A stretch of 58,703 nt of DNA, the filler included, from Streblomastix strix (Eukaryota), in the NCBI GenBank assembly GCA_008636045.1. It is 2 parts of 2 records of this genome, joined end to end, with 100 filler letters (N's around TTAATTAATTAA, not from the genome) between each part and the next. Parts side by side here need not be neighbours in the genome. Positions count along the whole stretch, not along the records: positions 1 to 29,344 come from SNRW01000103.1; 1 more part is not named here. One strand, 5' to 3'. A program made the translations under genes and the position numbers. Every line of letters begins with the position of its first letter. The stretch's first letter is position 1. Shown here piece by piece: positions 1 through 57,275 of this stretch. The notes beneath the pieces are model-generated. The model was not told the DNA's origin, ran no database searches, and worked only from the letters and a program-made list of their open reading frames with translations.

Positions 1-2601
1 TATATTTTGTACTTTTAATAGTATATGTTCTTTTCCAATGTTCATTAGTAACATATTTCATTCTTCTATTAAATTAATTTCTTTCATTGTTTAATATAGC
101 TCCATTAATTATAAGCTTCTCTCCAGCTACGATTTTACTGCTTCTATTTTGAATATTTGTTACTTCTAATGTTATCTTATTATTTGATAATATTTATGAT
201 GGATCTGTGGTCATCAACACATCTAAATGTTCTTAACCATGAGCAACTGTGTCCCAAATTCCTGGAATTTATCCACTTTCATCAAATTTTACTATATAAT
301 TATTATGTTGTATGTCTGTTCCAATATTCTCCAATAAATTCGCTTTGATGGACAAGTCTTTTCCTGATTTAATTGTGGATACTTAGAGATTTCTTAATTC
401 ATTTGTTTCTATTTCAATATTTCCACTTTCTGAGTTTATAGTTGAGTGATTATTATTCATTACTTTCGAAGCAGCTTCTAAATTAATAACTCCTTTTGAT
501 GATAATAATGCAGAATCAAGATTAATAAATTCTTACAATTCAAGTTTAATATTGTCTTCTGATAAAATTTATGATTTGTTTTCAAGGATATTTCCTTTGA
601 TTAACAGATCACGTCCTGAATGAATAAGAGATTAATTGAAATTTCTAATTTCTTTTGTTTCTATTATAATATTTCCACTTTCTGAGTTGATAGTTGAGTT
701 ATTAAAATTCATTAATTTCGAAGAAACTTTTAAATTAATATTTCCTTTTGATGATAATAATGCAGTGTCCTAATTAAAGAATTCATTAATTGTCATGTTA
801 AGATCTCCTTCAGAAAGAATTTTTGAATAATTTAATAATACATTGGTTTCTATGCTTATATTCTTTTTTGCTTTTATTAATGCATTTGTACCTATATTGA
901 TAATTTAATGTTGAATTTTTAAATGAATATTATTACCTTCAATTATTGATTATATTTAGGAAATATCTGCTTTTAAACTTGTTTATTTTTTGAATGATCC
1001 AAAATTTCGAAGAAATCCTCCTAAAATAATAATGTTTCCTTTTGCAATTATCTGATATTTAATAAGAAATATCATACTTGGATGATTGTTTCCATTCTGA
1101 AAATTTGTTATGGTTATATTTCCACCTGCAATTATTGGTTTCTCTGTGCTTATATAAATGTTATTGATTTTGAAATAAATATCATTTTCTGAATTGAGAA
1201 TTGATCTATCAATAATTCTTGAATTTTACTAATTTTCAATTATAATACTATTTCCTGATTTAATGATTGATTCATCTTATATATTGAGATTTTTCTTGGC
1301 TTTTATTTTCACATCTTTATTTGAAGAAATTGTTGCATTTTCACTAATTAATATATCATCCTAAGATTCAATCATTAAATCGCTCATAGTGCTTATTAAA
1401 TTTCCATTTATTTTAATGGATGATTTCTCCTCTGTTGTATTGAATGTTATTTATTAGCTCTAAATAATTGCATTATTATGAAGTACTATTGAATTTCTCT
1501 TTTAATCATTACAGATATCAGATGTAGTGTATTTTGCATATGAATTTCTAATTTCAATCCCATTTCCTGTTTTAATATTAATTATTCCTTCTGGTGCTGA
1601 TATTTCACCTTTGATTGTTATATTGTATGCAATAAAATTAATTATATTGGCAGATTTAAATTCTGCTGATCTTCTAATTTCCAGATTATTTTATATTCCC
1701 AAATCAAATTAATTCTTTGTTACGAATATTGATACAATAAAAGTAACATATTATATTCTTTCAGTAGAAAATTAGTCTAAAATAATCCCAAATGGATTTA
1801 TAAATATAACTTCAGCATTTCCTCCAACTAATTCAATACTCCCATTTAATTCTGTATTAATTGAATCCATTTCTAGTAATATACATTATGCTTCTTCCTT
1901 ATCTAAATTTGGATTCTATTCAATTTCCTTTCCTTATTCTGCTTTAATAGGAAGAATACTATTGTTCAAAATAATCTTTGTTTTATTTTAATAATTTTGA
2001 ATATTAAATAAATTACGACTTAATCCATCATCGTTTGGTTTTGAAATATTAAAAATAATAATTAAGTCAAAAATGTTGTTTAAATTATCTTTACAATCTT
2101 ATTTTTCATTTTCTTTGTCTGATGACTTCAAGCATTATTAAATTATATCTTCTTTATCATTTTCTTTCTATTTATCTAAATTTTCTTATTTTTCATTTTC
2201 AAATAAATTCAATCAATCTTTACTATCTTCTTTATCTTATACTGTCTAATTAACTTAATTAATAATTTGTTATGATGTGAATTATTCAGCATTTGATTCA
2301 TCTTAAAATTTGATAGTAAAAAGGATGTATTCATCATCGAGCTGACAACAAAATTATATTAAAAGTTAAAAATAAAATTGAATAATCTAAACGAATCACT
2401 AAAAAAATATTTACAAACTAATCCAATCTAAAATATTTATTTTGAATCATCTAGAATTTAATCATCATATTGCAAGACCAAATTTTCAGCTTTAAAATTA
2501 AATTGTTGCGCCATCTTTTGCTTTATTTGATAAATAGTTGGTGTTATATCAATTTCAATGATATACTATTAACCAGTTATAGATCTAATATTTAGTTTCA
2601 T
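1..2601 (-). CDS. UBL domain fused to a filamentous haemagglutinin/CdiA-like (TpsA) protein; 3' end lies beyond the window start; one in-frame TGA at 2213-2215
   Basis: With TAR=Gln, exon 1 (2601-2419) reads MKLNIRSITGQQYIIEIDITPTIYQIKQKMAQQFNFKAENLVLQYDDQILDDSKQIFQIGL (UBL). A GT..AG intron spans 2418-2342. Exon 2 continues in frame. Below 2212 the frame is open to base 1 (~737 codons) with TPS-domain motifs IFNISKPNDDGLSRN, IILNNS, NPNL (1904-1915), LNGSIELVGGNAEVIFINPFGI (NPFGI 1784-1798), then beta-helix repeats and a CdiA-like TTDPSQILS...NRSSKIVAGEKL segment. Confidence 0.85.
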
Positions 2602-4091: not shown

Positions 4092-7000
4092 TCACATATC
4101 ATTAAAGTTCGGTTAGTGAGTAAATGAAGATGAATATTAATTTAAAGAAGAATCAAACTAAATAGAACAATCATCGATCATTTATGATGGTGTTTATACA
4201 TTAAGGTCTTTATGAAATTAGTTTGTGTTTGAAGGAAGTTAAGAATTAATGAATGAAGGAGGAGGACTTATGAATTAAGATAAAGATAAAGTTGATAATG
4301 AAGATGAAGATTATGAAAATTAATTACCAAATGGAAAAGAAGGAGAAATAATTGAATCTGAAATATGTGGTGAAAGAGGAGGGAATTCTAACTATGATAA
4401 ATATGAATCATCTATATTNNNNNNNNNNNNNNNNNNNNNNNNNNNNNNNNNNNNNNNNNNNNNNNNNNNNNNNNNNNNNNNNNNNNNNNNNNNNNNNNNN
4501 NNNNNNNNNNNNNNNNNNTTGATAATGAAGATGAAGATTATGAAAATTAATTACCAAATGGAAAAGAAGGAGAAATAATTGAATCTGAAATATGTGGTGA
4601 AAGAGGAGGGAATTCTAACTATGATAAATATGAATCATCTATATTCAAAGGGGAGTAAATATGTGAAATACATTCTGGTGATGAATCCTATGTTAATAAT
4701 GATGATTATATTGCTGATGTGGAATGGAGGAGTGAATCAATTGTTGATGTTGGATTTATATTATCTGAAATTTATTAAACTTATTCTACTTGAGCTATTT
4801 GAGGCATTTGTAATTGAACAAATGCTGATTAATTATTCATCAAATTATTTAATTTTTCAGGTTCATCTACCTTGATATTTGTTTCTTTTCCATTTTTATC
4901 CATAAATTTATATTCCATTGTTGTTTTTTTATTCAAATCATATGCACTTTCTTCATTATTAATTTTTTTTTCTATTTCATTCATTATTAAAATTCCATTT
5001 CTTTATTTTATTTTATTTTCTTATTCATTTCTAATTGAAAAATCATTTACTATCTTTTTATCTTCAGATAACGAATAAATATCTTCAAATTAATTAACTA
5101 TTCTTTCATTCAATTAATAATCTGCTGGGTTTTCAGTTTTTAAATTGTTTGAATTAATATTATTTAAGTTAATATTATCAATATGATATTAATTATTAAT
5201 TAGTTAAGAGTCGTTTATTTATGTCTAAGAAATTGGATATGGATATTATGAAGGAAATGATTACAAATATGTAATTGGTTGTAGAAATAATTGTTGTTGA
5301 AGAATAGGAACAGGAATTAATTATTAAATAAGTAGAGGCTGTTAAGAATGTAAAATCTGATATTAAATATATGATTATTGAGAAGAAATTGGTTAATGGA
5401 CTTGATTATTTGACATGTTCAATGATTAATTTTTATATATTATTTAAGGAGAGATTAGATGAATATTATTAATTGATTCTGAAGCTTATTATATTTAATT
5501 AGTTTATGGTAACAATGTTTATTATGTTTATTAATATGTTAATATAGAATTAGGTTATTCAATTAGAATTTAATTAATTGGTACAGTTGATATTTCTTAA
5601 CTAAAACGGTTTTCTTAAGGATTAAGAAAATTGATTTTCTGAATAACATTTGGATTGATTATTTCTTTTGATTTAGAATTTTCTATTATTCTATTCTTAT
5701 CCGTGTCTAATTCTAATGATTATATATCTTTATTACCTTTATTTTCAGATTACAAGAAGTAAGATATTATTTAATCATTTTCATTTTCTTATTCATATAA
5801 TATCTACTCTTTATGAATATTATTTATATAATCTTAATGTTGCTTTTTCTTTTCAAATTATTTGTTTTATTGAATAATAGATTGCTTTTCATGTTTTTCA
5901 CTTGTTTTCACTTCTGAATTTGAATCCTATTTTATTTTATTATTTTATTTCTAGGATTTAAAGGATTATGATAAATTAAGAATTGGTGTCGGTAATAAAG
6001 AAGAAGTTGAATTGAAATTTTAAGTTTATGATTAAGATTATTTAATATTAGGAGAATAGTAATATTATTAAGGTGAAATATTTGATGAAGAAATTTTAGA
6101 ATGAGATTGAGAATTGAAATGATTATTATATTATTAAGGATGTATCTATGTTGATTTAGATTAATAATTTTAATATTTAGGAGATGTTGCATTATAAACT
6201 AGTGAATTATTTGGATGTGAATGTCTTGATATTTATGGAGGAAAAGAAGAATTATGTGGATAATTAGATTAATAAGATAAGTTTTAATATTTGTTTTGAT
6301 TTTAAATTTCATTTTATTCTTTTCTCTTATTAATATTTGATCTGTTATAATTATTATTTATATCTTATGAATATTAGGGTGGAGAAGGTAGTAAAGCATC
6401 ATTTGAAGAAGTTTCTAATTTATTGGTTTTATTATCGATATTTTATTTCTATGTTATGTTCATAATATTATTTATTTTAATATTCTATTCATTTTATAAT
6501 AAATTATTTTCTCTATAATTCTATTCTTTTTCATTCTAAATTTCTTATTTTTCATTTCTGTTAACTTTTATCAAATCTATTCCTGTTTTCTTTTATTTTA
6601 TTTCATTCAATGATTTATATTATGAAATTAATTCTGGTGAAGCAATTTCAATATTTACACCAATTAAACTCTCTAATGTATAGTTTAAATCTCTACGAAT
6701 TGCACTTCGAAGATAAATATGAACTTCTGAGTCATCAATACGTAATATTTATTCTTTCTTATCTCCCATCAACATTAATACTGACTATTCCATATAAAAA
6801 TATAATGAAATAATATTGTAAATAGAAAGCAAAGTATTCTCTAATAAAAGCAAAACAGATTTAATTAGGATATTAATTTCAAAATTATATATATTTCATA
6901 CTATTTAACCTCTCAAATTGTTTCCAAAATGAATAAATCCTTCTCCAATATATAATCCTTTATTATCTTTCATTAGATCAATTCTTTTGACTTCTCCAAA

Positions 7001-13400: not shown

Positions 13401-14970
13401 AGTATGCAATTAAGAACAACGTACCTATTACAGTTAGTGCTGAATGAATATATAAATTACTTCGAGTATGTATTTCAGGTGGTCTTGCAGCAGTATTTCA
13501 TAGAGAGAATATAGCTGTTAAACCTCATATAAATGAATTAACTTATGATGAATAATCAAATAATGTGAATTCATAAGATAATGAAAATGCTGCCACTCAT
13601 GTACTTGCTCTTGATGATAACAGTCTTTATACAATTTCATTTTCTTCAGCTAAAAATGAAAATATTCTTTACACTGATCATAGAATATATATAGCTGGAA
13701 GATCAAGATTTTATTCAGAAAAACCATATGTAATTAAAAATTGTATAGAACAAGGAAAGGATATATTTGATGCAAAAGTCAAAGGTTATTTTCCTAAATC
13801 GGAAAACAATAATTTACTTGCATTACCACCAATCTTTAGAAATATTGAGATAGAAAACAAGGAGGTAGTGATAAGCGAATATATGTATTCACAAGCACAA
13901 AATCATTCACAACCAATGACTAGCAAAGATAGAAAACTTCCAACATTATTTGATACTAATGATTAATACATGGTATTTAATAACTATTTTCTTTGGCTTC
14001 TTGTTGATTTTGGTTTCATCATTACTGATTACAAAGCTATTGCAATCTTTGAGAAAAATATGGCATATGAGCTTTTTGTTAGAACAATGATGAATTTAAG
14101 AATATTAACTATATTTGCAGGATCATCTAAAGAAAAATTCTATAAATTAATAATTAACGCATCGTATGGATACAATACATTAAATACAGAGAAGTTTGGA
14201 AAGATAAAATTATTAGATAAAGCTGATATATTTATTGCATAACATCACCCTAATCACATTGGTACCAGACATATTAGTGCTAATACATTTGCAGTATAAA
14301 TTAAACCTAAAACAGCTACTTGTTTTACATCACTTTAATCAGTAGTATTTACATTAAATAATGCAAAATATTGATATGTCAATTAAATATATAACTTCAT
14401 ATATATATGTCTAGACTGCAAAGGATTTCATTTTGTTCTTGCAGATACTGATTCAATTAATATTGCTATAGCAGGAGATCCAAATAAAGACTGTCAGTAA
14501 TAATTTGAAGCTATAAAATCAGATAAATAGTTATATGACTAACATATATATTAGTATTAGCCTGAACCTAATAAAGACATCTATAACTATAAAAAGATAT
14601 TTGGATTTGGAATTGAAAATGAAGGGTATGAACTTACATCATTAGGACCTAAGTGCTATTCAATGATTGTGCACAAATGGAACAAAGAAAAATAATAATA
14701 TGAATTTAAACCAAAAATTATATCTAAATGAATTAGCAAAACAAAACAAATTTCTTATAATGATTATGTCAATGTAATTATTAAAGATATAGTGAAAAAA
14801 GGCATTATTAGAATATTAAAAATATACGATAAAGTTATGAGTAACATTCAAGTTGAAAAGTATGCATTATTTTGACTCAATAATAAATCAATAGTACTTA
14901 GGAATTAATGTTGTTGCCCTTATATTAAAGGATTAACTGCTAAGGATTATCAAATCAAAGATTAACAATG
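10402..14970 (+). pseudogene. Protein-primed family B DNA polymerase (pPolB), frameshifted
   Basis: ExoI TYDFET (~12120), ExoII GWNSSRFD (~12450), motif A ALDDNSLY (~13610), motif B KLIINASYG (~14145), motif C ADTDS (~14441), LGPKCY. CPHC..HVKKC Zn finger upstream. Frameshifts and TGAs present. Confidence 0.9.
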
Positions 14971-16968: not shown

Positions 16969-17720
16969 ATGGCATTAAGAAAATAATGACAATTTGATCA
17001 ATAGAAAAATATTGATTCTTATGTATTAACATATGATTATTTATATGATTTTAGTAATACTGATACTATATTTTCAAAGGATGATATGAAGAAATTATTA
17101 GATAAGTATTCTGATAAAAGAGTTCTTGAAATTGCGTATTATATTACTTACTTAATAATTGATGATTATACTAAATTGTGGATTAAATTTAAGAGTTTGA
17201 TTGAGGATGAAAATCGAGATTTCAATAAATTTATCATTGCATAGGATTAAAATGATTAATAAATTGCATAAGCAAGATATGGAAGAATTAAAGAAAAACT
17301 ATAAATTTAAGCCCATTAACCTATTAAGATTGATGAACCAATTTTATTATAATAGAGATAAACTTAATCTTTGACAAATAAATAAAAAGCTAAAAATCAA
17401 ACCTAATCAATTACTTCTGTTAATGAGCTTAATAAATTAACGTAATAATTAATAAATATTATTAGTGAGTAAGAGTAATTCCATTTAGATAATTATATAG
17501 ATCCAAACAAAAAATTAATTAAAAAGCTTTAAGAAGAAAATATTAGTTCAAAACAAACATTTTTTATCAGAATTCTGAACCATAAGTTCAATAAAAATAG
17601 TTCAAAATATTGGATTAAATAGCATAAACTGTTAACTAAGTAGATTAATCTCTTAGCTAATGGTATAACTAATATATTTTTTAATTTACTGGGAGATATC
17701 CATAGAAAATGTACTCTTTG
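16969..17720 (+). pseudogene. Hypothetical Q-rich element protein upstream of the integrase
   Basis: Long frame open with TAR=Gln (one early TGA); no recognised motif. Confidence 0.4.
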
Positions 17721-18720
17721 AAACTTTAACCAAAGAAATTATATAAACAATCTAAGAAAGATAACTTATTCCAAGAATTTACATAAAATCAATTCCATTT
17801 CAAATCAAAGTACGATTTTATCCGTAAAGCTAATTACTATGATTTATTATCTCACAAAATTAGTAACTAATTTGATATTTATCCTTAAACTAATACTCTA
17901 GAACCTCATGACTATTAACTAAAGCCACTAGTGAAATTTGAAAGACCATACTTCTCACCTAACTACAATTCTTAGGAAATAGATTAAGTATTCATTATGA
18001 AAAAGAATGTTGAAATGAAACAGTATATATTCGCTATTAATGTAAACACTAAATATTTAATAGTAATACCAGTGAAATCTAAATCAAAAGTCCCAAAACT
18101 TGATGCTCTAAAATAGCATATATCATTTGTTTAGATTAATGATATCAGAAATGATGGTGAGAAATCTTAAGCTACAAAATTACTAAATGAATTCTATAAA
18201 CAAAATAGCATAAATACAATCTTCATAGGCAATAATTTTATTAATCATAATAGAGTAACTGATAGGGTTATTCGAACAATAAGAAACGCATTCGATAATA
18301 ACATTTATGAACTTGTTAATGAATAATTGATGAAATAAACTGTTGATATATATAGTAATACGCCACATATTGCTTATAAAAAAAAGTATAGTCTAATATT
18401 AGTTTAAAATGATAAGAGAATATAAGGATAATACATCTATCACTACAAACAATAATTAAATGATGCATTAAGATTTTAAAAAAATAGTTTAAAAAAGTAT
18501 AAAAATGGTAATATTTTACTGTAACACTTTAATGTCGCAAAAACAAAACACTAGTTTGATAAAATTGACATAATTTCAATAATATTGGTACATTTATGGA
18601 ATATGTTAATGGTAACATTAAAATTGAGTTATTGAATCCATATAGTGATTAATTGACAGTAATTTTATCAATATTCTTTACAAAATTAGTGGCAAAAAAT
18701 ATAAATAAATTAGATAATGA
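17720..18720 (+). pseudogene. Retroviral-type (rve) integrase, Polinton class
   Basis: FERPYFSP..NS.EID.VF; YIFAINVNTKYLIVIPVKSK; IRNDGE; HNRVTDRVIRTIRN; YSNTPH. Frameshifted at both ends. Confidence 0.8.
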
Positions 18721-44119: not shown

Positions 44120-47100
44120 CATTGCTTGAAAAAATCACTCTCCTTTTTCCACCCGCACAACTTGTAAACATGTTATTATGGTGAGTTGCTGCCATTTATA
44201 CCCCATCATTAGCCGCTCTTACACGCATTTCTCTTTTTTATTCGACAGTCAATTTTGCAATTTAGTTGCTATCATTTGAATGGAGAACTTCAAGAATTTA
44301 TTTAATATATTGCATTCTTTATATGTGTAGTTACTTGTGACTCCTTCTTTGGAAAGGATATCACATGAAGCTCCATCTTTAAGGCTCTTGAAATCATCAA
44401 TGAATAATGAAATTTTCTCTATTTCGTTGAAATATTTCAATTATTTCTATTTTCTTATCCATTTGAATAATGTTTTCACAAAATTTCAATATATTTATCC
44501 ACATACGAATCCTAAATTTGATTAATTAAATAGTTCAATAATGATAATCCAGCGAGTAAAAACAGCGTGTTTATGTTTGCATAAATAACAATAAATTAAT
44601 TAATATAAAGAACTTAAATGCATATATCATTTTATCTATATAATTTTTAGCATTATCGTCATAGAATTATTTAACCTTGATAACATAGTTAAATTATTAT
44701 TAATATCCTGCTTCAGCTATGCCACTAACCTCCCAATAAGCCGAATCAGTATCACCTTCCACGAAGTGCATTTTCTCCATGACAAACGCTTTATGCATAA
44801 TATTATATATAAAATTTACATAATGATATTTAGCATTATCCTGCACAAAATAAGTTTCTTATATTGATGTCTTACTTGTGCAAGTCTCTGGTTTTAATTA
44901 TACCACGTATGCATCCGCTGATAATTATTGTTCATCCATAAAAGTATTTGACAAATGGGCTTTTAGTGCTCACTTCTAATCCATGACTTTTATTTCGGAA
45001 TATTTCTCTGTGTTCATTCCATCGGATCCATATGATGAGTTCATAGTTATTTTACAAAATTATTCTAATTCCTTACTTTCTTCTATTTTCGCTTATAATC
45101 TCTTGCTTATAAATTCCTTTACTAATAAATAAAATCATTCATGCTTATTAAAAATATTATTTGTTTTATATCATCAATAATAAAGTGGCAATCATCAATT
45201 AGGAACAATATACTGTAAGAGCTAAAAGACATAAATTCGCCCATCGACGATAACAAATTGGTTAATTTTTGCTATTTTTAGACTGTTTTAATGTTGTTGT
45301 TATTCATATGATTATACATATAAGGCCCAATGGTATCTTTGCTAGTGGTAAAAGGATAATTTCTTAAAATAGATTGGAAATTAATAAAATCATTAATGTA
45401 ATTTTCGTCAATGTGCCCCTTTAATTCAGCTTTAAATAATTAATCATGGCCCACTTTTATGTTCATTATCTTATCCTTATCGTTTGTCCTATCAGTAACA
45501 GAGCCATATATATACATTTTATTTCCAATGTATTTTATAAATTTATGTGGCTCTGATTATTTAACGCTGAGATATAAGGAATTGAAATCAACGCCGATGA
45601 TATGAGATATTAGAATATTTGATGTTTGTATTTGAACCTTTTTAAGTGCCTTATCATATTTGAGTTAAATTATATATTCATTACCCGCAATATTTTCTCG
45701 ATGCATTACATTAGATATGCTGCCAGTTATTTCAACACAAATCAGTTTATACTCTTCAATGTTTGTTTAATTATTGGGGAGACAATTATGCATGCAATAT
45801 CTGCGAAGTTAAATAATTAACTGACAAATATTTTTATCTTAATTTGAACAATATTTATTGCAATAGAAGCAGCACGATTGTACATTAATTTTTGTAGTAA
45901 GTAAATTATTATTGATTCCATCGAGTGTTGGCTTATTATTCACTGTAAATTTATCACCACAAATAGCAAATGCTGATGATTCGAGTTATTGCTTAAAATA
46001 ATCGTAATCATTAACTGAAACATTATTTTTAGTATCTCATTGTTTAATTTAGTCTTAAAATTTATATCTATCCATTTTATATTTCCAATAATTGGGATAT
46101 AAAATGAATTTATAAGAATTGTCTTCAATAGGGGGAAATTATCGTTTATATCAAAGTCTTTTTAAGCTAAAGCGTATTTGATAGCGTTTGCACATGCTGC
46201 CAATGGACATAAAGCTAATCATATCAATTTTATATTTGAAGTTCATTTAGATTAAATTTTCTATTGATGTTATCATTATTTTTGTATCCTAATCATTATA
46301 GTATTGTAGATATTCTCATCATTTTATAAATTATTTTGCACCGTTAAGTTGAAGCAACGCAAAATCCTCTAAATATTTTTTTAAATCGTCATTGTTCATT
46401 GATGAGTTCATTAGTGTTGAATTGAATACCTCTTGAAGAAATGACCTGGAACTATCGAGAATTTCGATATAATTATTGAGTGCTTGCGCTAAACTATAAT
46501 AGATTTGGCTTATGATAAACTGCCAATATAACTCTTAATTTTCCAGCTTTAAGATTATAAGTGTTTAAATATCAATGCAAAATCGAACTTTTCACTATTG
46601 AATCTAACGACGGGAACCTCAACGTATTCACTCTCTTATATCTCAGCGTTTTTATATATGTTGTCTTCCTATATTTACTTCGGTTCAATAAATATATATT
46701 TGTGCCATTAATTTATAAAATCATCGCCATTTCTGATATCATAGTAAATCATTTTTATACCTTATTTATTCTTTATAGTTGAAGCTACAAAAAGGGGTAC
46801 TAGTTATGATATCTATTTACTTGATTTACTAAAATCCTTATTAATTATTTTCTCCACTGTTTCTAATTCACAAATGATATAGTATTAAGTTGGTTTAAAT
46901 TTATTCTTTCTAATATTTGCCAGTAAGTACGCGTATGTCTTATCCTACGTTATATGCAGGCAAAATGGTCTTTGAACAGTTTCCAATTAAATTTTTTTGA
47001 CTATTTTTCCTTTGTTTATTTTGCATTTCTTAATATGTTTCTCATATTGTTCTACGAAATGAATGCCCTTAAGGTCAAATGTTTTTTATTTACAAAAGGG

Positions 47101-48600
47101 GCAAAATTTTGATCCTGTTATAGTTTCATTATTAGAGATATAAAAAACTTGGACATATATTTTCATCATTTTTCGCTGAGTTAATTAATACATTAAAGTC
47201 AGGAACTTAAACGGGTTCATTTATGGCTCCATCGATGGACACGTTATCGGCTTCGTTAACGTCTTCATTATATCTATAGACTTTTGACTAATAATATGTT
47301 TAATTCTCCACGAAATAACAATATATATTTACATTATTTTTTTTCCCTTACAACGAATTAATCAATTTCTGTTTCAATATCGAACCCAGTGAAATCATTT
47401 AGCCATTTTAATATTCAATATCATCTATTTTATACGCTAATTAATAAAATTTAGCCATATGTTCCTTTGTCATTAGCTCTCGTGAATGTTCTTTAATTCC
47501 TTTCTTTGTAGAATCGGGAAATTTAAATAAATTATAAGCGTAGAACCTGTATATATTATATTTGCTTCTTGTTGTTCTCAAACAATTTTTATGCCCCTTC
47601 AAATAAAAGTCAATTAATTTCTTAATGCTGCCGCCCACATGGTTTTGAGATAATTTGTACGAATTATTCATCATTTAATAAATTGCAATGAAAAGTTGTT
47701 TCATGCTATCTAAATTAAAGTTTTACCTTTCAATTATTTCCGATTTTACATATTATTTATATTCCTCGATATCTTATTCAGTGATTATTGATTTGGGGGT
47801 ATGCTTTTATGTCCTTGCTTCATCAGGACTAATATTACCGTAAGACACTGACAGCTGCCAATTTTTTTTCCGTTTTGTTCCTCATATATTACTCCAAAAT
47901 CAAAGCTAATTTTAAATGTTTTATGGTTTTATTTTTCATAGACGTCATCAATAAATTTATTTATCTCGCCTAAAGAATAAATGAAATTATTATAGTATAT
48001 AGTGCTAATGGGGTTTTCAATATCTTTTTCAAAATGGAACCCTTTACGTGCATCATCAACTGCTTCAATAAACTTATCCTCTATTTGCGGTGGAAAATAA
48101 AGTAAGGTAATAGACAAGTTATTTTCAATCTCATTAACTTCATCATTATTATATTTATTAATTTGATCCTTAATTTCTTCATTTTATATTATATCAATGT
48201 ACATTTGAGGTAAAACGAAATTGCGTCATGTCTTGCTAAAGTTCTCGGGTTTTGTGAATTAAATTGTTTCGTTACGCAAACGCTATTGGATTTAATAATC
48301 ATGTTCTTATTATGCCAATTCTTATTACTGTTCGCGTTTATTTTCTTTCAAATCCAATTCATATTAATTTTAATGGAAATAATTGATTTGATTATTTTAT
48401 TCCATTTATTATTGTTAAGCTTCAGCAACTTACCGCCAATGTGTAGCAGCCGCGAAAGTATTTAGTTTTGTTAAATTAGTTCTTCATCTTTTGAGTTATT
48501 CCAATTAATCTAATACTTAATTTAGTTATTATTTTAATGTGGGAACAGTTAAACGACGATTAACATTATTTTATCCAACGTATTCAGGCAATAATAGAAT
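44120..48600 (-). pseudogene. Second pPolB, frameshifted
   Basis: Motif A GVDFNSLY (~45580), motif B FCKITMNSSYGSDGMNTEKY (~45030), motif C EGDTDSAYW (~44750), CPFC Zn finger (~47095). Confidence 0.9.
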
Positions 48601-55383: not shown

Positions 55384-57275
55384 ATGGAGGTTATTTTTGA
55401 GTTTCCTGCTCGAGCTAATGGATATAAATTGCTTTATGAGATAGGCCAAGGATCATCTGCCAAAGTCTGGCGTTCGCAATGCATATCACTGAATTAAGAT
55501 GTTGCCATAAAAATCATCGACATTGAAAAAGTAGTTGGGACCTTCGACACAGTTCTTGTATATCATAATATTATTAATAAATTCAATTATTGCCTATTAT
55601 TTATATTCATTCAATATCATAGAAAGAAATTGGAGTTCTCTTGTCATCGAAACACAAAAACATCTCGAATATCCTGATTTCATTTGTTAATTAGAGCGAA
55701 CTCTGGGTTGTAATGCCACTATTTGTTGGTATTCATACTTATATACTATATGATATTCCATCAATTAATTAATATTAACAATTAAATATTTTGTTAATTA
55801 TTATATTCAATAAATAATTACTTACTTTATAATAACTGAGAAATGTAAAGATTCGTGCCTCGCCATCATTCGAGTTGTCTTCAAGCATGGTTTCAATGAA
55901 GATGTAATAGCAGTGATCCTCAGAAGCACAGTTGGTGGAGTTGAATAGATGCAGAAGTAAGGTGAAATGGATGGTGATGTAAAAGCTTTAAATTTATTGA
56001 TGAGGGCTTTTGGGACAATCGCTCTTTCTGATTTTGGAGTGAGTGGTCTTCTTATTGAGAATGGAGAAGGCAAATAAGAGAGGAGGACTTTTGTAGGGAC
56101 ACCTTGCTGGTATTAATTAAGATATACTTATATAATGTAATACTTATAAAAATATAAATATTTGTTATAAAAATGTTTAATTTATTATTGTTATTTATAT
56201 AATTACTATATTATCAAATTCGCATCTCTTTACATCCAGGATGGCAACCGAGCTCATCGACATCAATTTGGGTTACGACAGCAAAATCGACATTTGGGCC
56301 ATCGGAATAACAGGTATTGAATTAGGGAATGGAAAAGCACGACTATCTGATCTGCGACGAATGAAAGTACTGACGATGATTCTGAAAGGACCTGGACCTA
56401 TGTTAAGTGATAATGAAGTAGATAATGAGAGTGATTCATCAGATTGGAGCTCAGATTCAGACTCGGAGTCAAACTCAGATGATGCAGCTCAGAAATAGAA
56501 GAAATAGAAAACTACTAAGAAATTGATTAGTTATTCGAAACCTTAACGGACTTCAGGATAGAATTTGATGAGTGAGTTGAATGATGTTGATAATGATGAC
56601 CCCGTAGCTGAAGATGGATAGAGCCTTACGTCTTGTTCCAAAGTGAGGGTGTAGAAGCACATCCAGTCGAAGCTGATCTCAAATTCGAAACCCTTTTCAA
56701 GCTCTTTCAAAGACTTCGTGTAACAATGCCTTCAAACTGATCCTAAGAAAAGACCATTGGCTTCCAAATTACTGGAGGATAAATTGGTTAGTGGTGCGAA
56801 AGGTGAAGAGATGTTATTAAAAGAGATTCTAAGGTTAATTGTTCCAGTTGAAGAAGTGATTCAGGTTCAACAACAGAAACTTCGGAAACTCAACAAAGCT
56901 ACGATCTGAACTATGAAGAAATCCCCACAGACAAATATCGATGTTACAACTTCGCAATAAAGACAAACTACACGACAGACACATGATGCAGTTATATAAG
57001 GTAGTAGTGAAGGAGCTTCATCCTAACAACAACAACAACCAGTTGAACAACAACAACAATAACCTGTTGAACAACAAATACATGAAGTCTCTGGATTTGA
57101 TGTTATCTGTGTTAAGATTGAAGGAGCTTAAAGATAAGATAAGTAAAGTAGTTGTGATGAGAAGAAAGAAGATTGTAAAAGTGAAGAGAATAAGAAAACA
57201 GTTGATGAAAAGGATGTTTGGGATTTGTAGATTGATGAGAACAAGAAGGAATAGGATTAGAATTAAGATTAATGA
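55384..57275 (+). pseudogene. STE20-family (OSR1/SPAK-like) Ser/Thr kinase with degraded catalytic loop; in-frame TGA at 56907
   Basis: IGQGSSAKV, VAIK, ELWVVMP, DGDVKALNLL (for HRDxKxxN), SDFGVS, TFVGTPCWMATE, DIWAIGIT, CLQTDPKKRP. Three introns; Q/E-rich tail to TGA 57273-57275. Confidence 0.85.

What the first reader, a model, noticed from the sequence alone, without database searches (positions are those of the whole stretch)
1..2601. Eukaryotic UBL-headed filamentous haemagglutinin/CdiA-like protein: a domesticated bacterial two-partner-secretion adhesin or toxin
Seen: a UBL exon, a 77-nt GT-AG intron and an acidic linker lead in frame into a TPS (haemagglutination-activity) domain with NPNL and NPxGI motifs, followed by >500 codons of beta-helix repeats. 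About 30 in-frame TAA/TAG codons show the gene follows the host code. Established: TPS domains belong to Gram-negative TpsA proteins (FHA, CdiA), normally preceded by a Sec signal peptide and exported by TpsB; UBL 'header' domains front eukaryotic Crinkler/RHS-type effectors. Inference: a horizontally acquired TpsA whose signal peptide was replaced by a UBL header, possibly acting as an adhesin or contact-dependent weapon toward gut bacteria or ectosymbionts. Caveat: one TGA (2213-2215) separates header and body.
Basis: partly seen in the sequence, partly recalled or inferred. Interest (0 to 1): 0.92.

Follow-up and report, generated by a model that had tools for sequence, protein, structure and literature searches.

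The report
Protist's tamed bacterial toxin filament
A single-celled eukaryote, likely a termite-gut oxymonad, has a host-coded gene that joins a ubiquitin-like head to the body of a bacterial contact-dependent toxin filament likely taken from a Rickettsiales symbiont; it is predicted to act as a disarmed bacterium-binding rod, and the stop codon that splits this copy is likely absent from a second haplotype.

Summary
Observation confirmed. On the minus strand a ubiquitin-like (UBL) exon, a 77-nt GT-AG intron and an acidic linker lead in frame, across one TGA, into 737 codons read with TAA/TAG=Gln: TPS domain, beta-helix repeats and a CdiA-type segment, cut by the window edge. An annotated Streblomastix strix paralogue (KAA6399727.1, 1910 aa) has the same UBL-then-TpsA order and is colinear (32%, E 2.5e-83). 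In three trees the eukaryotic rows group with TpsA-like proteins of termite-gut Rickettsiales, whose loci show swapped C-termini and orphan cassettes. GC and codon use are host-like (GC3 0.15 vs 0.47). Contig geometry implies a second haplotype that differs inside the stop codon (inferred; letters not seen). Against the weapon idea: the paralogue has seven helical repeats where the toxin tip should be, there is no signal peptide or membrane helix, and no TpsB was found. Recent changes look neutral (dN/dS about 1) and there is no RNA evidence. Origin about 0.9 sure; function open, best guess a cytosolic bacterium-binding adaptor (0.4). Not found in print in nine searches. New variant of a known kind.

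The parts
2419..2601 (-). Exon 1: ATG and first 61 residues of a ubiquitin-like domain
   Evidence: Pfam PF00240 E 1.5e-10; 26 of 59 identical to the paralogue's UBL, against 11/56, 5/18 and 12/47 for three other UBL-like stretches of the window
2342..2418 (-). Predicted 77-nt GT-AG intron
   Evidence: GTTTGT..T-rich..CAG; fits length and 3' features of Streblomastix introns but has T, not A, at +3 (PMC1501061 passages); gives an ungapped UBL alignment; no RNA
2216..2341 (-). Exon 2: last strand of the UBL and start of an acidic linker
2213..2215 (-). In-frame TGA; real in the DNA, likely haplotype-specific
   Evidence: Run X1 record 7 matches 2096-2243 with no difference; record 6 has the same ends, 6 differences, no gap; 30-nt overlap geometry puts the last difference at 2213 (inferred)
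2057..2212 (-). Acidic linker continued (body residues 1-52), where bacterial relatives have a signal peptide
   Evidence: hydropathy scan shows no hydrophobic stretch, bacterial relatives have one near the N-terminus
1553..2056 (-). Degenerate TPS domain (residues 53-220) with NPNL and NPFG
326..1552 (-). Short FHA-1-like beta-helix repeat region (residues 221-629)
   Evidence: Fil_haemagg 25 bits; all-beta single-sequence model, pLDDT mostly 55-90 here; tblastn to CdiA-like plasmid genes over up to 91% of the frame
343..826 (-). Internal tandem duplication of 84 codons (343-574 and 595-826, 76% identical), absent from the paralogue
2..325 (-). Conserved segment with the DPSQI motif, lying between FHA-1 and FHA-2 where CdiA has its receptor-binding and YP domains; frame runs off the window
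   Evidence: 76% identical to the paralogue, 43% to a Rickettsiales protein; aligns to DPGKI/DPAKI of two CdiA; domain order from PMC9086364 passages

Best explanation
This is a host-coded gene in which a ubiquitin-like head is joined to a TpsA/CdiA-type beta-helical body likely acquired from a termite-gut Rickettsiales symbiont, and it is predicted to work as a disarmed, cytosolic rod that would bind bacterial surfaces and couple them to the host's ubiquitin machinery. Shown: domain order, host codon use, a paralogue with the same order, no signal peptide. Inferred: donor and direction of transfer; long maintenance of the frame by selection; a second haplotype without the stop. Predicted only: that the most conserved segment, at the position of CdiA's receptor-binding and YP domains, still binds bacteria; that UBL (plus two UBA-like domains in the paralogue) recruits proteasome or ubiquitin-binding partners; that the window's missing 3' half is toxin-less like the paralogue's. 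The allele in the window would give only a 103-residue UBL peptide.
For: Origin: TPS 94.9 bits with a bacteria-only profile; paralogue colinear from the first Met, E 2.5e-83; paralogue vs Rickettsiales TpsA 30% over residues 591-1591, E 3e-116, while other genomes of that order reach at best 1e-16 (8 of 300 others, different query); trees 97/84, 91/91, 98/94; the two genomes are small, from a lower termite, family UBA1997, one listed among putative endosymbionts (PMC11257099 supplement rows). Host residence: GC 0.23, GC3 0.15 and TAA-dominated Gln like two neighbouring host frames, donors GC 0.46; DNA also held by a run of a second study at 98-100%. Long selection: neutral drift of 0.1-0.25 changes per base would give 5-12 stops in the body, none seen. 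Disarmed: homology to the donor ends at the DNKIFTEKGR/DHRLLTSDGR motif, after which the paralogue has seven 24-28-residue helical repeats with no match. Cytosolic: no hydrophobic stretch, no TpsB in the window, UBL plus UBA-like hits in the paralogue.
Against: No binding, location or expression data. Recent change looks neutral: dN/dS 0.96 (pN/pS interval 0.57-1.85) between the internal duplicates; 2 of 8 allele-like differences synonymous, 20% expected; 4 of 10 shown in a diverged copy. The stop haplotype is the deeper one (6.3 vs 3.1). The window's 3' half is unseen. The paralogue is an automatic gene model whose DNA I could not read, its UBA hits are below cut-off and it lacks the first half of the TPS. 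Long branches and odd composition could pull the TPS tree together, bootstraps of two trees had not settled, and nesting inside the Rickettsiales rows is not shown (AU p 0.28). The receptor-binding label rests on position only.
Confidence: 0.4

Rival explanations
1. Once useful, now decaying: the family was domesticated long ago, but this copy is under relaxed selection and is becoming a pseudogene, leaving at most a small UBL peptide.
For: Real TGA in the deeper haplotype; neutral-looking recent changes; other Streblomastix relatives are annotated as short pieces, 236 and 168 aa; candidate introns that would remove the TGA are 67-73% purine against 38% for the accepted intron.
Against: 737 codons without a further stop or frameshift; a likely open haplotype; 76% identity kept in one segment; solvent-exposed or arms-race surfaces can also show dN/dS near 1 (general knowledge).
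Confidence: 0.23
2. Surface adhesin: the UBL head routes the protein out by a non-classical path, as proposed for Crinkler headers, and the beta-helix tethers or selects the ectosymbiotic bacteria that coat the cell.
For: FHA-type fold and best-kept segment at the receptor-binding position; UBL headers are proposed to aid translocation (PMC5289972 passages); Streblomastix carries epibiotic bacteria (PMC1501061 passage).
Against: No signal peptide, membrane helix or anchor seen; the header here resembles ubiquitin/Rad23, and its kinship to Crinkler headers was not tested.
Confidence: 0.2
3. Armed contact-dependent weapon against gut bacteria: the window's copy keeps FHA-2 and a toxin tip beyond the window edge.
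For: Donor loci look like polymorphic toxin loci: differing C-termini, small downstream genes, orphan C-terminal cassettes; a poly-UBL gene with a nuclease-like motif lies in the same window (motif recalled).
Against: The complete paralogue has no recognisable toxin or pre-toxin domain; no TpsB and no export signal; the donor tips match no Pfam toxin either.
Confidence: 0.12
4. Artefact: a bacterial contig or amplification chimera joined to a eukaryotic UBL gene, or two unrelated neighbours.
For: No single contig in the laid runs spans the whole gene; 2244-2259 is not covered by a listed piece.
Against: 34 in-frame TAA/TAG make the body unreadable in the bacterial code; overlapping contigs run from the TPS into exon 2; a paralogue on another contig has the same order with a related UBL.
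Confidence: 0.03

Closest known systems
CdiA / TpsA of two-partner (type Vb) secretion, contact-dependent growth inhibition
   Same: TPS, FHA-1-type repeats, conserved DP..I segment and, in the paralogue, FHA-2 in the same order (PMC9086364, PMC5422565 passages).
   Different: Eukaryotic, intron-bearing, TAA/TAG=Gln; UBL instead of a Sec signal; short FHA-1; degenerate NPNG; no TpsB; no VENN, toxin tip or immunity gene in the paralogue model.
Haemagglutinin-like polymorphic toxins of Rickettsiales (here family UBA1997 from a termite gut)
   Same: Closest sequences in three regions; compact build; degenerate TPS; no TpsB found in 2 of 2 genomes, in line with the statement that Rickettsiales lack CdiB (PMC11077975 passage).
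   Different: They have hydrophobic N-termini, varied tips and downstream cassettes; the eukaryotic paralogue has UBL at the front and helical repeats at the end.
Crinkler/RHS-type eukaryotic effectors with UBL header domains
   Same: A eukaryotic UBL fused ahead of a bacterium-derived conflict module (PMC5289972 passages).
   Different: Their C-termini are enzymes such as NTPase, REase or kinase; here the acquired part is the delivery filament and the enzyme tip seems lost.
Teneurins (recalled, no call)
   Same: A bacterial polymorphic-toxin scaffold taken up by eukaryotes and reused for binding.
   Different: RHS/YD shell with a membrane anchor, not a TPS beta-helix; ancient and widespread.
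Rad23/Dsk2-type UBL-UBA shuttles
   Same: UBL, and two weak UBA-like hits in the paralogue.
   Different: Fused to a bacterial beta-helix; the window's copy has no UBA.

Membership tests
TpsA (type Vb passenger) | N-terminal TPS domain | tested here: met
   below Pfam's cut-off
TpsA (type Vb passenger) | Intact NPNL and NPNG motifs | tested here: inconclusive
   NPNL kept, NPNG reads NPFG; NERG in the paralogue; motif roles from PMC5422565
TpsA (type Vb passenger) | Sec signal peptide | tested here: not met
   UBL and acidic linker instead; no hydrophobic stretch in a simple hydropathy scan
TpsA (type Vb passenger) | Beta-helical repeat body | tested here: met
   fold search ranks FHA and HpmA TPS structures first but only at E 0.09 and above
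TpsA (type Vb passenger) | Cognate TpsB transporter | tested here: inconclusive
   none in the window; the host genome is not held
CdiA | FHA-1, RBD/YP interval, FHA-2 order | tested here: met
   window up to the interval; FHA-2 only in the paralogue, E 3.9e-10
CdiA | Pre-toxin motif and C-terminal toxin | tested here: not met
   tested on the paralogue only; the window's own 3' half is unseen
CdiA | Linked immunity gene | not testable with these tools
   would lie beyond the window edge
Crinkler/RHS effectors | UBL header | tested here: inconclusive
   UBL present; not compared with Crinkler headers
Crinkler/RHS effectors | Enzymatic CR-toxin C-terminus | tested here: not met
   none in the window's part or the paralogue

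The most novel reading that the evidence does not exclude
A protist has captured its own endosymbiont's contact-dependent toxin filament, removed the warhead, swapped the bacterial export signal for a ubiquitin-system head and expanded it into a gene family that recognises or manages its bacterial partners: a domesticated type Vb CDI scaffold in a eukaryote.
Probability: 0.4. Interest if true: 0.9.

Novelty: new variant of a known kind. Interest (0 to 1): 0.72.

Why it matters
TPS passengers are tied to the Gram-negative outer membrane, so a long-maintained eukaryotic family of them is unexpected. It would be a traceable gene transfer from a putative endosymbiont of termite flagellates to a host nucleus, and gives a concrete candidate for how an oxymonad recognises, holds or controls its bacteria, a question with no known molecule to my knowledge (recalled). 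The conserved segment can be tested directly for bacterial binding.

Tried and rejected
No host genome is held, so copy number and the 3' half could not be read. Word-indexed protein searches with the window frame found nothing; the HMMER scan did (516 hits at E<=0.001). Locus scans with the window frame found nothing in genome or metagenome contigs, nor did a degenerate motif scan; back-translation ignores TAA/TAG=Gln, so these blanks are weak. No RNA holder listed: no evidence either way on expression. The Atlas gave only sub-0.9 unnamed hits for the paralogue's tail, and that tail's model is too poor to search (pLDDT 43). The single-sequence model of the window frame is poor in the TPS start and last 100 residues and gave no fold match at E<=0.001. 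Pfam ShlB rang in neither Rickettsiales genome nor in controls; a TpsB protein query found 0 of 2 genomes (87% and 63% complete) and 2 of 2 control plasmids. A hexamer count gave no usable splice-donor signal. An alternative donor four bases on (GTAAAT) would shift the frame with the same acceptor, or drop the UBL's last strand with a later one (read); I kept the 77-nt intron. Removal of the TGA by a second intron was judged unlikely, not excluded. Earlier-findings look-ups returned nothing. The S. strix genome paper and the Crinkler header paper by Zhang et al. are not held.

Full report
Observation. The window is AT-rich and has no frame over 132 aa in the bacterial code. With TAA/TAG read as Gln, 2212-2 on the minus strand is one frame of 737 codons, open at the window edge; none of 2000 shuffles gives such a run. 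Upstream lie an ATG-led UBL exon (Pfam E 1.5e-10), a 77-nt GT..CAG intron, a 42-codon second exon and one TGA at 2215-2213. The TPS domain is real but degenerate: FHA structure 1RWR at E 1.3e-9, 94.9 bits with a profile made without any eukaryotic row (controls at most 5.7), yet only 21.2 bits against Pfam's cut-off of 33.5. The frame matches 18 plasmid records, 8 over at least 80% of its length; the three I opened are TpsB-TpsA loci with small downstream genes, two with VENN and two with an annotated immunity gene. Its last 108 residues hold a DPSQI motif that aligns to CdiA between FHA-1 and FHA-2, where the review PMC9086364 (passages) places the receptor-binding and YP domains.

Host. The DNA is held by two termite-gut metagenome runs of two studies. 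The code, the intron features (PMC1501061 passages) and the named paralogues point to the oxymonad Streblomastix strix or a close relative; this is inferred. The body is fully host-like: GC 0.23, GC3 0.15, 34 of 40 Gln codons TAA/TAG, as in two neighbouring host frames, against GC 0.46 in the bacterial relatives.

A family. The HMMER scan gave 516 hits; I looked up 28 of the 150 listed. The only eukaryote-named records among them were S. strix: KAA6399727.1 (1910 aa, found as a cluster member) and KAA6395310.1 (236 aa); a later search added KAA6359372.1 (168 aa, partial), which starts just past where the window's frame ends and may or may not be its continuation. KAA6399727.1 is the best match in all four segments of the frame (45, 31, 42, 76%) and aligns from the first Met with the window's spliced head, X at the stop, and body (32%, E 2.5e-83). 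The two UBLs are closer to each other than to three other UBL-like stretches of the window, a small control. The paralogue reads UBL, two weak UBA-like hits, second half of the TPS, FHA-1, conserved segment, FHA-2. It is an automatic model and I could not read its DNA.

Donor. The nearest bacterial proteins are from two Rickettsiales genomes, which the supplement of PMC11257099 lists as family UBA1997 from the termite Glyptotermes, 1.2 and 1.5 Mb estimated, one in its table of other endosymbionts (rows seen; main-text passages call such lineages putatively endosymbiotic). The paralogue matches one of them over 1000 residues at 30%, E 3e-116. Of 300 other genomes of the order, 8 matched a donor fragment, at E 1e-16 or weaker. 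Trees of the TPS (60 rows), the conserved segment (45 rows) and FHA-2 (31 rows) put the eukaryotic rows with these proteins at 97/84, 91/91 and 98/94. Rows were chosen from my hits: all above a score threshold for two trees, 40 picked plus 20 random for the TPS. Cautions: long branches and composition, unsettled bootstraps in two trees, unnamed metagenome rows in the same groups, and an AU test that does not reject Rickettsiales monophyly without the paralogue (p 0.28). Direction bacterium to eukaryote is inferred from the spread of TpsA in bacteria. The donor loci look like polymorphic toxin loci (differing tips, downstream small genes, orphan cassettes 62-100% identical to tips), though no tip matched Pfam. 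TpsB was not found in 2 of 2 incomplete genomes but in 2 of 2 control plasmids; PMC11077975 (passage) says Rickettsiales lack CdiB. So the TPS may have been freed from its transporter before the transfer.

The stop codon. In run X1 one contig matches 2096-2243 exactly (depth 6.3), so the TGA is in the DNA, though only 28 of its letters lie on one side. A second contig has the same ends, six differences and no gap (depth 3.1), and the contig before ends at 2125, a 30-base overlap. In a 31-mer graph such a pair runs from 30 before the first difference to 30 after the last, which puts the last difference at 2213, the third base of the stop; any change there gives a sense codon. The letters were not printed, so this is inferred; the second contig may be an allele or a near-identical copy, and X1 may be the window's own source. 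Thirteen in-frame GT-AG pairs could splice the stop out, but all are 67-73% purine against 38% for the accepted intron.

Selection. The two paralogues are 31-45% identical over most of the body, yet the window's body has no stop; neutral drift of 0.1-0.25 per base would give 5-12. So the frame was kept for most of its history. Recent change shows no constraint: dN/dS 0.96 between the internal duplicates, 2 of 8 allele-like differences synonymous (small numbers, only the differences the tool listed).

Mechanism. Homology between paralogue and donor ends at a shared motif near residue 1590; the donor continues into its tip, the paralogue into seven helical repeats without a match. Neither eukaryotic protein has a signal-like or membrane stretch, while the three bacterial ones scanned do. 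The anatomy therefore points to a protein made in the cytosol, without a warhead, that best preserves the segment CdiA uses for target contact, with a head that links to the ubiquitin system. I take a cytosolic bacterium-binding adaptor as most likely (0.40), ahead of decay (0.23), surface adhesin (0.20), armed weapon (0.12) and artefact (0.03). Every functional step is predicted, none shown; the origin alone I put near 0.9.

Known kinds and novelty. It works like a CdiA scaffold but fails membership (no signal peptide; no toxin tip in the paralogue). It shares the UBL-header layout of Crinkler effectors (PMC5289972 passages) but lacks their enzyme modules. Eukaryotic uptake of bacterial toxin domains is known (PMC3482391, table passages only). 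Nine searches (listings and abstract starts) showed no report of a eukaryotic TpsA or of this family; PMC10703272 and PMC6759080 were seen as passages only, and the first has no mention of haemagglutinin or adhesin. The S. strix genome paper, its supplements and Zhang et al. 2016 were not available and could list these genes. Verdict: real, new variant of a known kind, interest 0.72.

Noticed in passing
window 24850-26430 (+): Several UBL-like units in a row (Pfam ubiquitin, 2 stretches) leading towards a frame with a D..ExK nuclease-like motif (recalled; no Pfam hit): Crinkler-like layout, apparently with frame breaks.
   Followed up: partly
window 13448-14374 (+), 17469-18635 (+), 46408-47361 (-): Frames that resemble protein-primed DNA polymerase and integrase remnants of Polinton-like elements (recalled motifs); no convincing Pfam or PDB hit.
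   Followed up: partly
window 56043-56909 (+): Protein kinase exon, Pfam Pkinase E 1e-10, supporting a eukaryotic contig.
   Followed up: partly
window about 4296-4644: About 120 bases repeated on both sides of a 100-N gap: probably an assembly gap artefact.
   Followed up: no
L005 10001-15800, L016 269-13159, L017 5553-12531: Small-genome Rickettsiales (UBA1997) carry several TpsA-like genes with differing C-termini, downstream small genes and orphan C-terminal cassettes, with no TpsB found; the tips match no Pfam family.
   Followed up: partly
proteins P0011, P0004, P0006, P0159: Unnamed or generic metagenome proteins close to the family; P0011 shares a mid-region insert with the eukaryotic copies and sits beside them in the TPS tree (89/36); low Gln content suggests standard-code organisms. 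Source organisms unknown.
   Followed up: partly
P0163 residues 1604-1800: Seven 24-28-residue helical repeats without a known match.
   Followed up: partly
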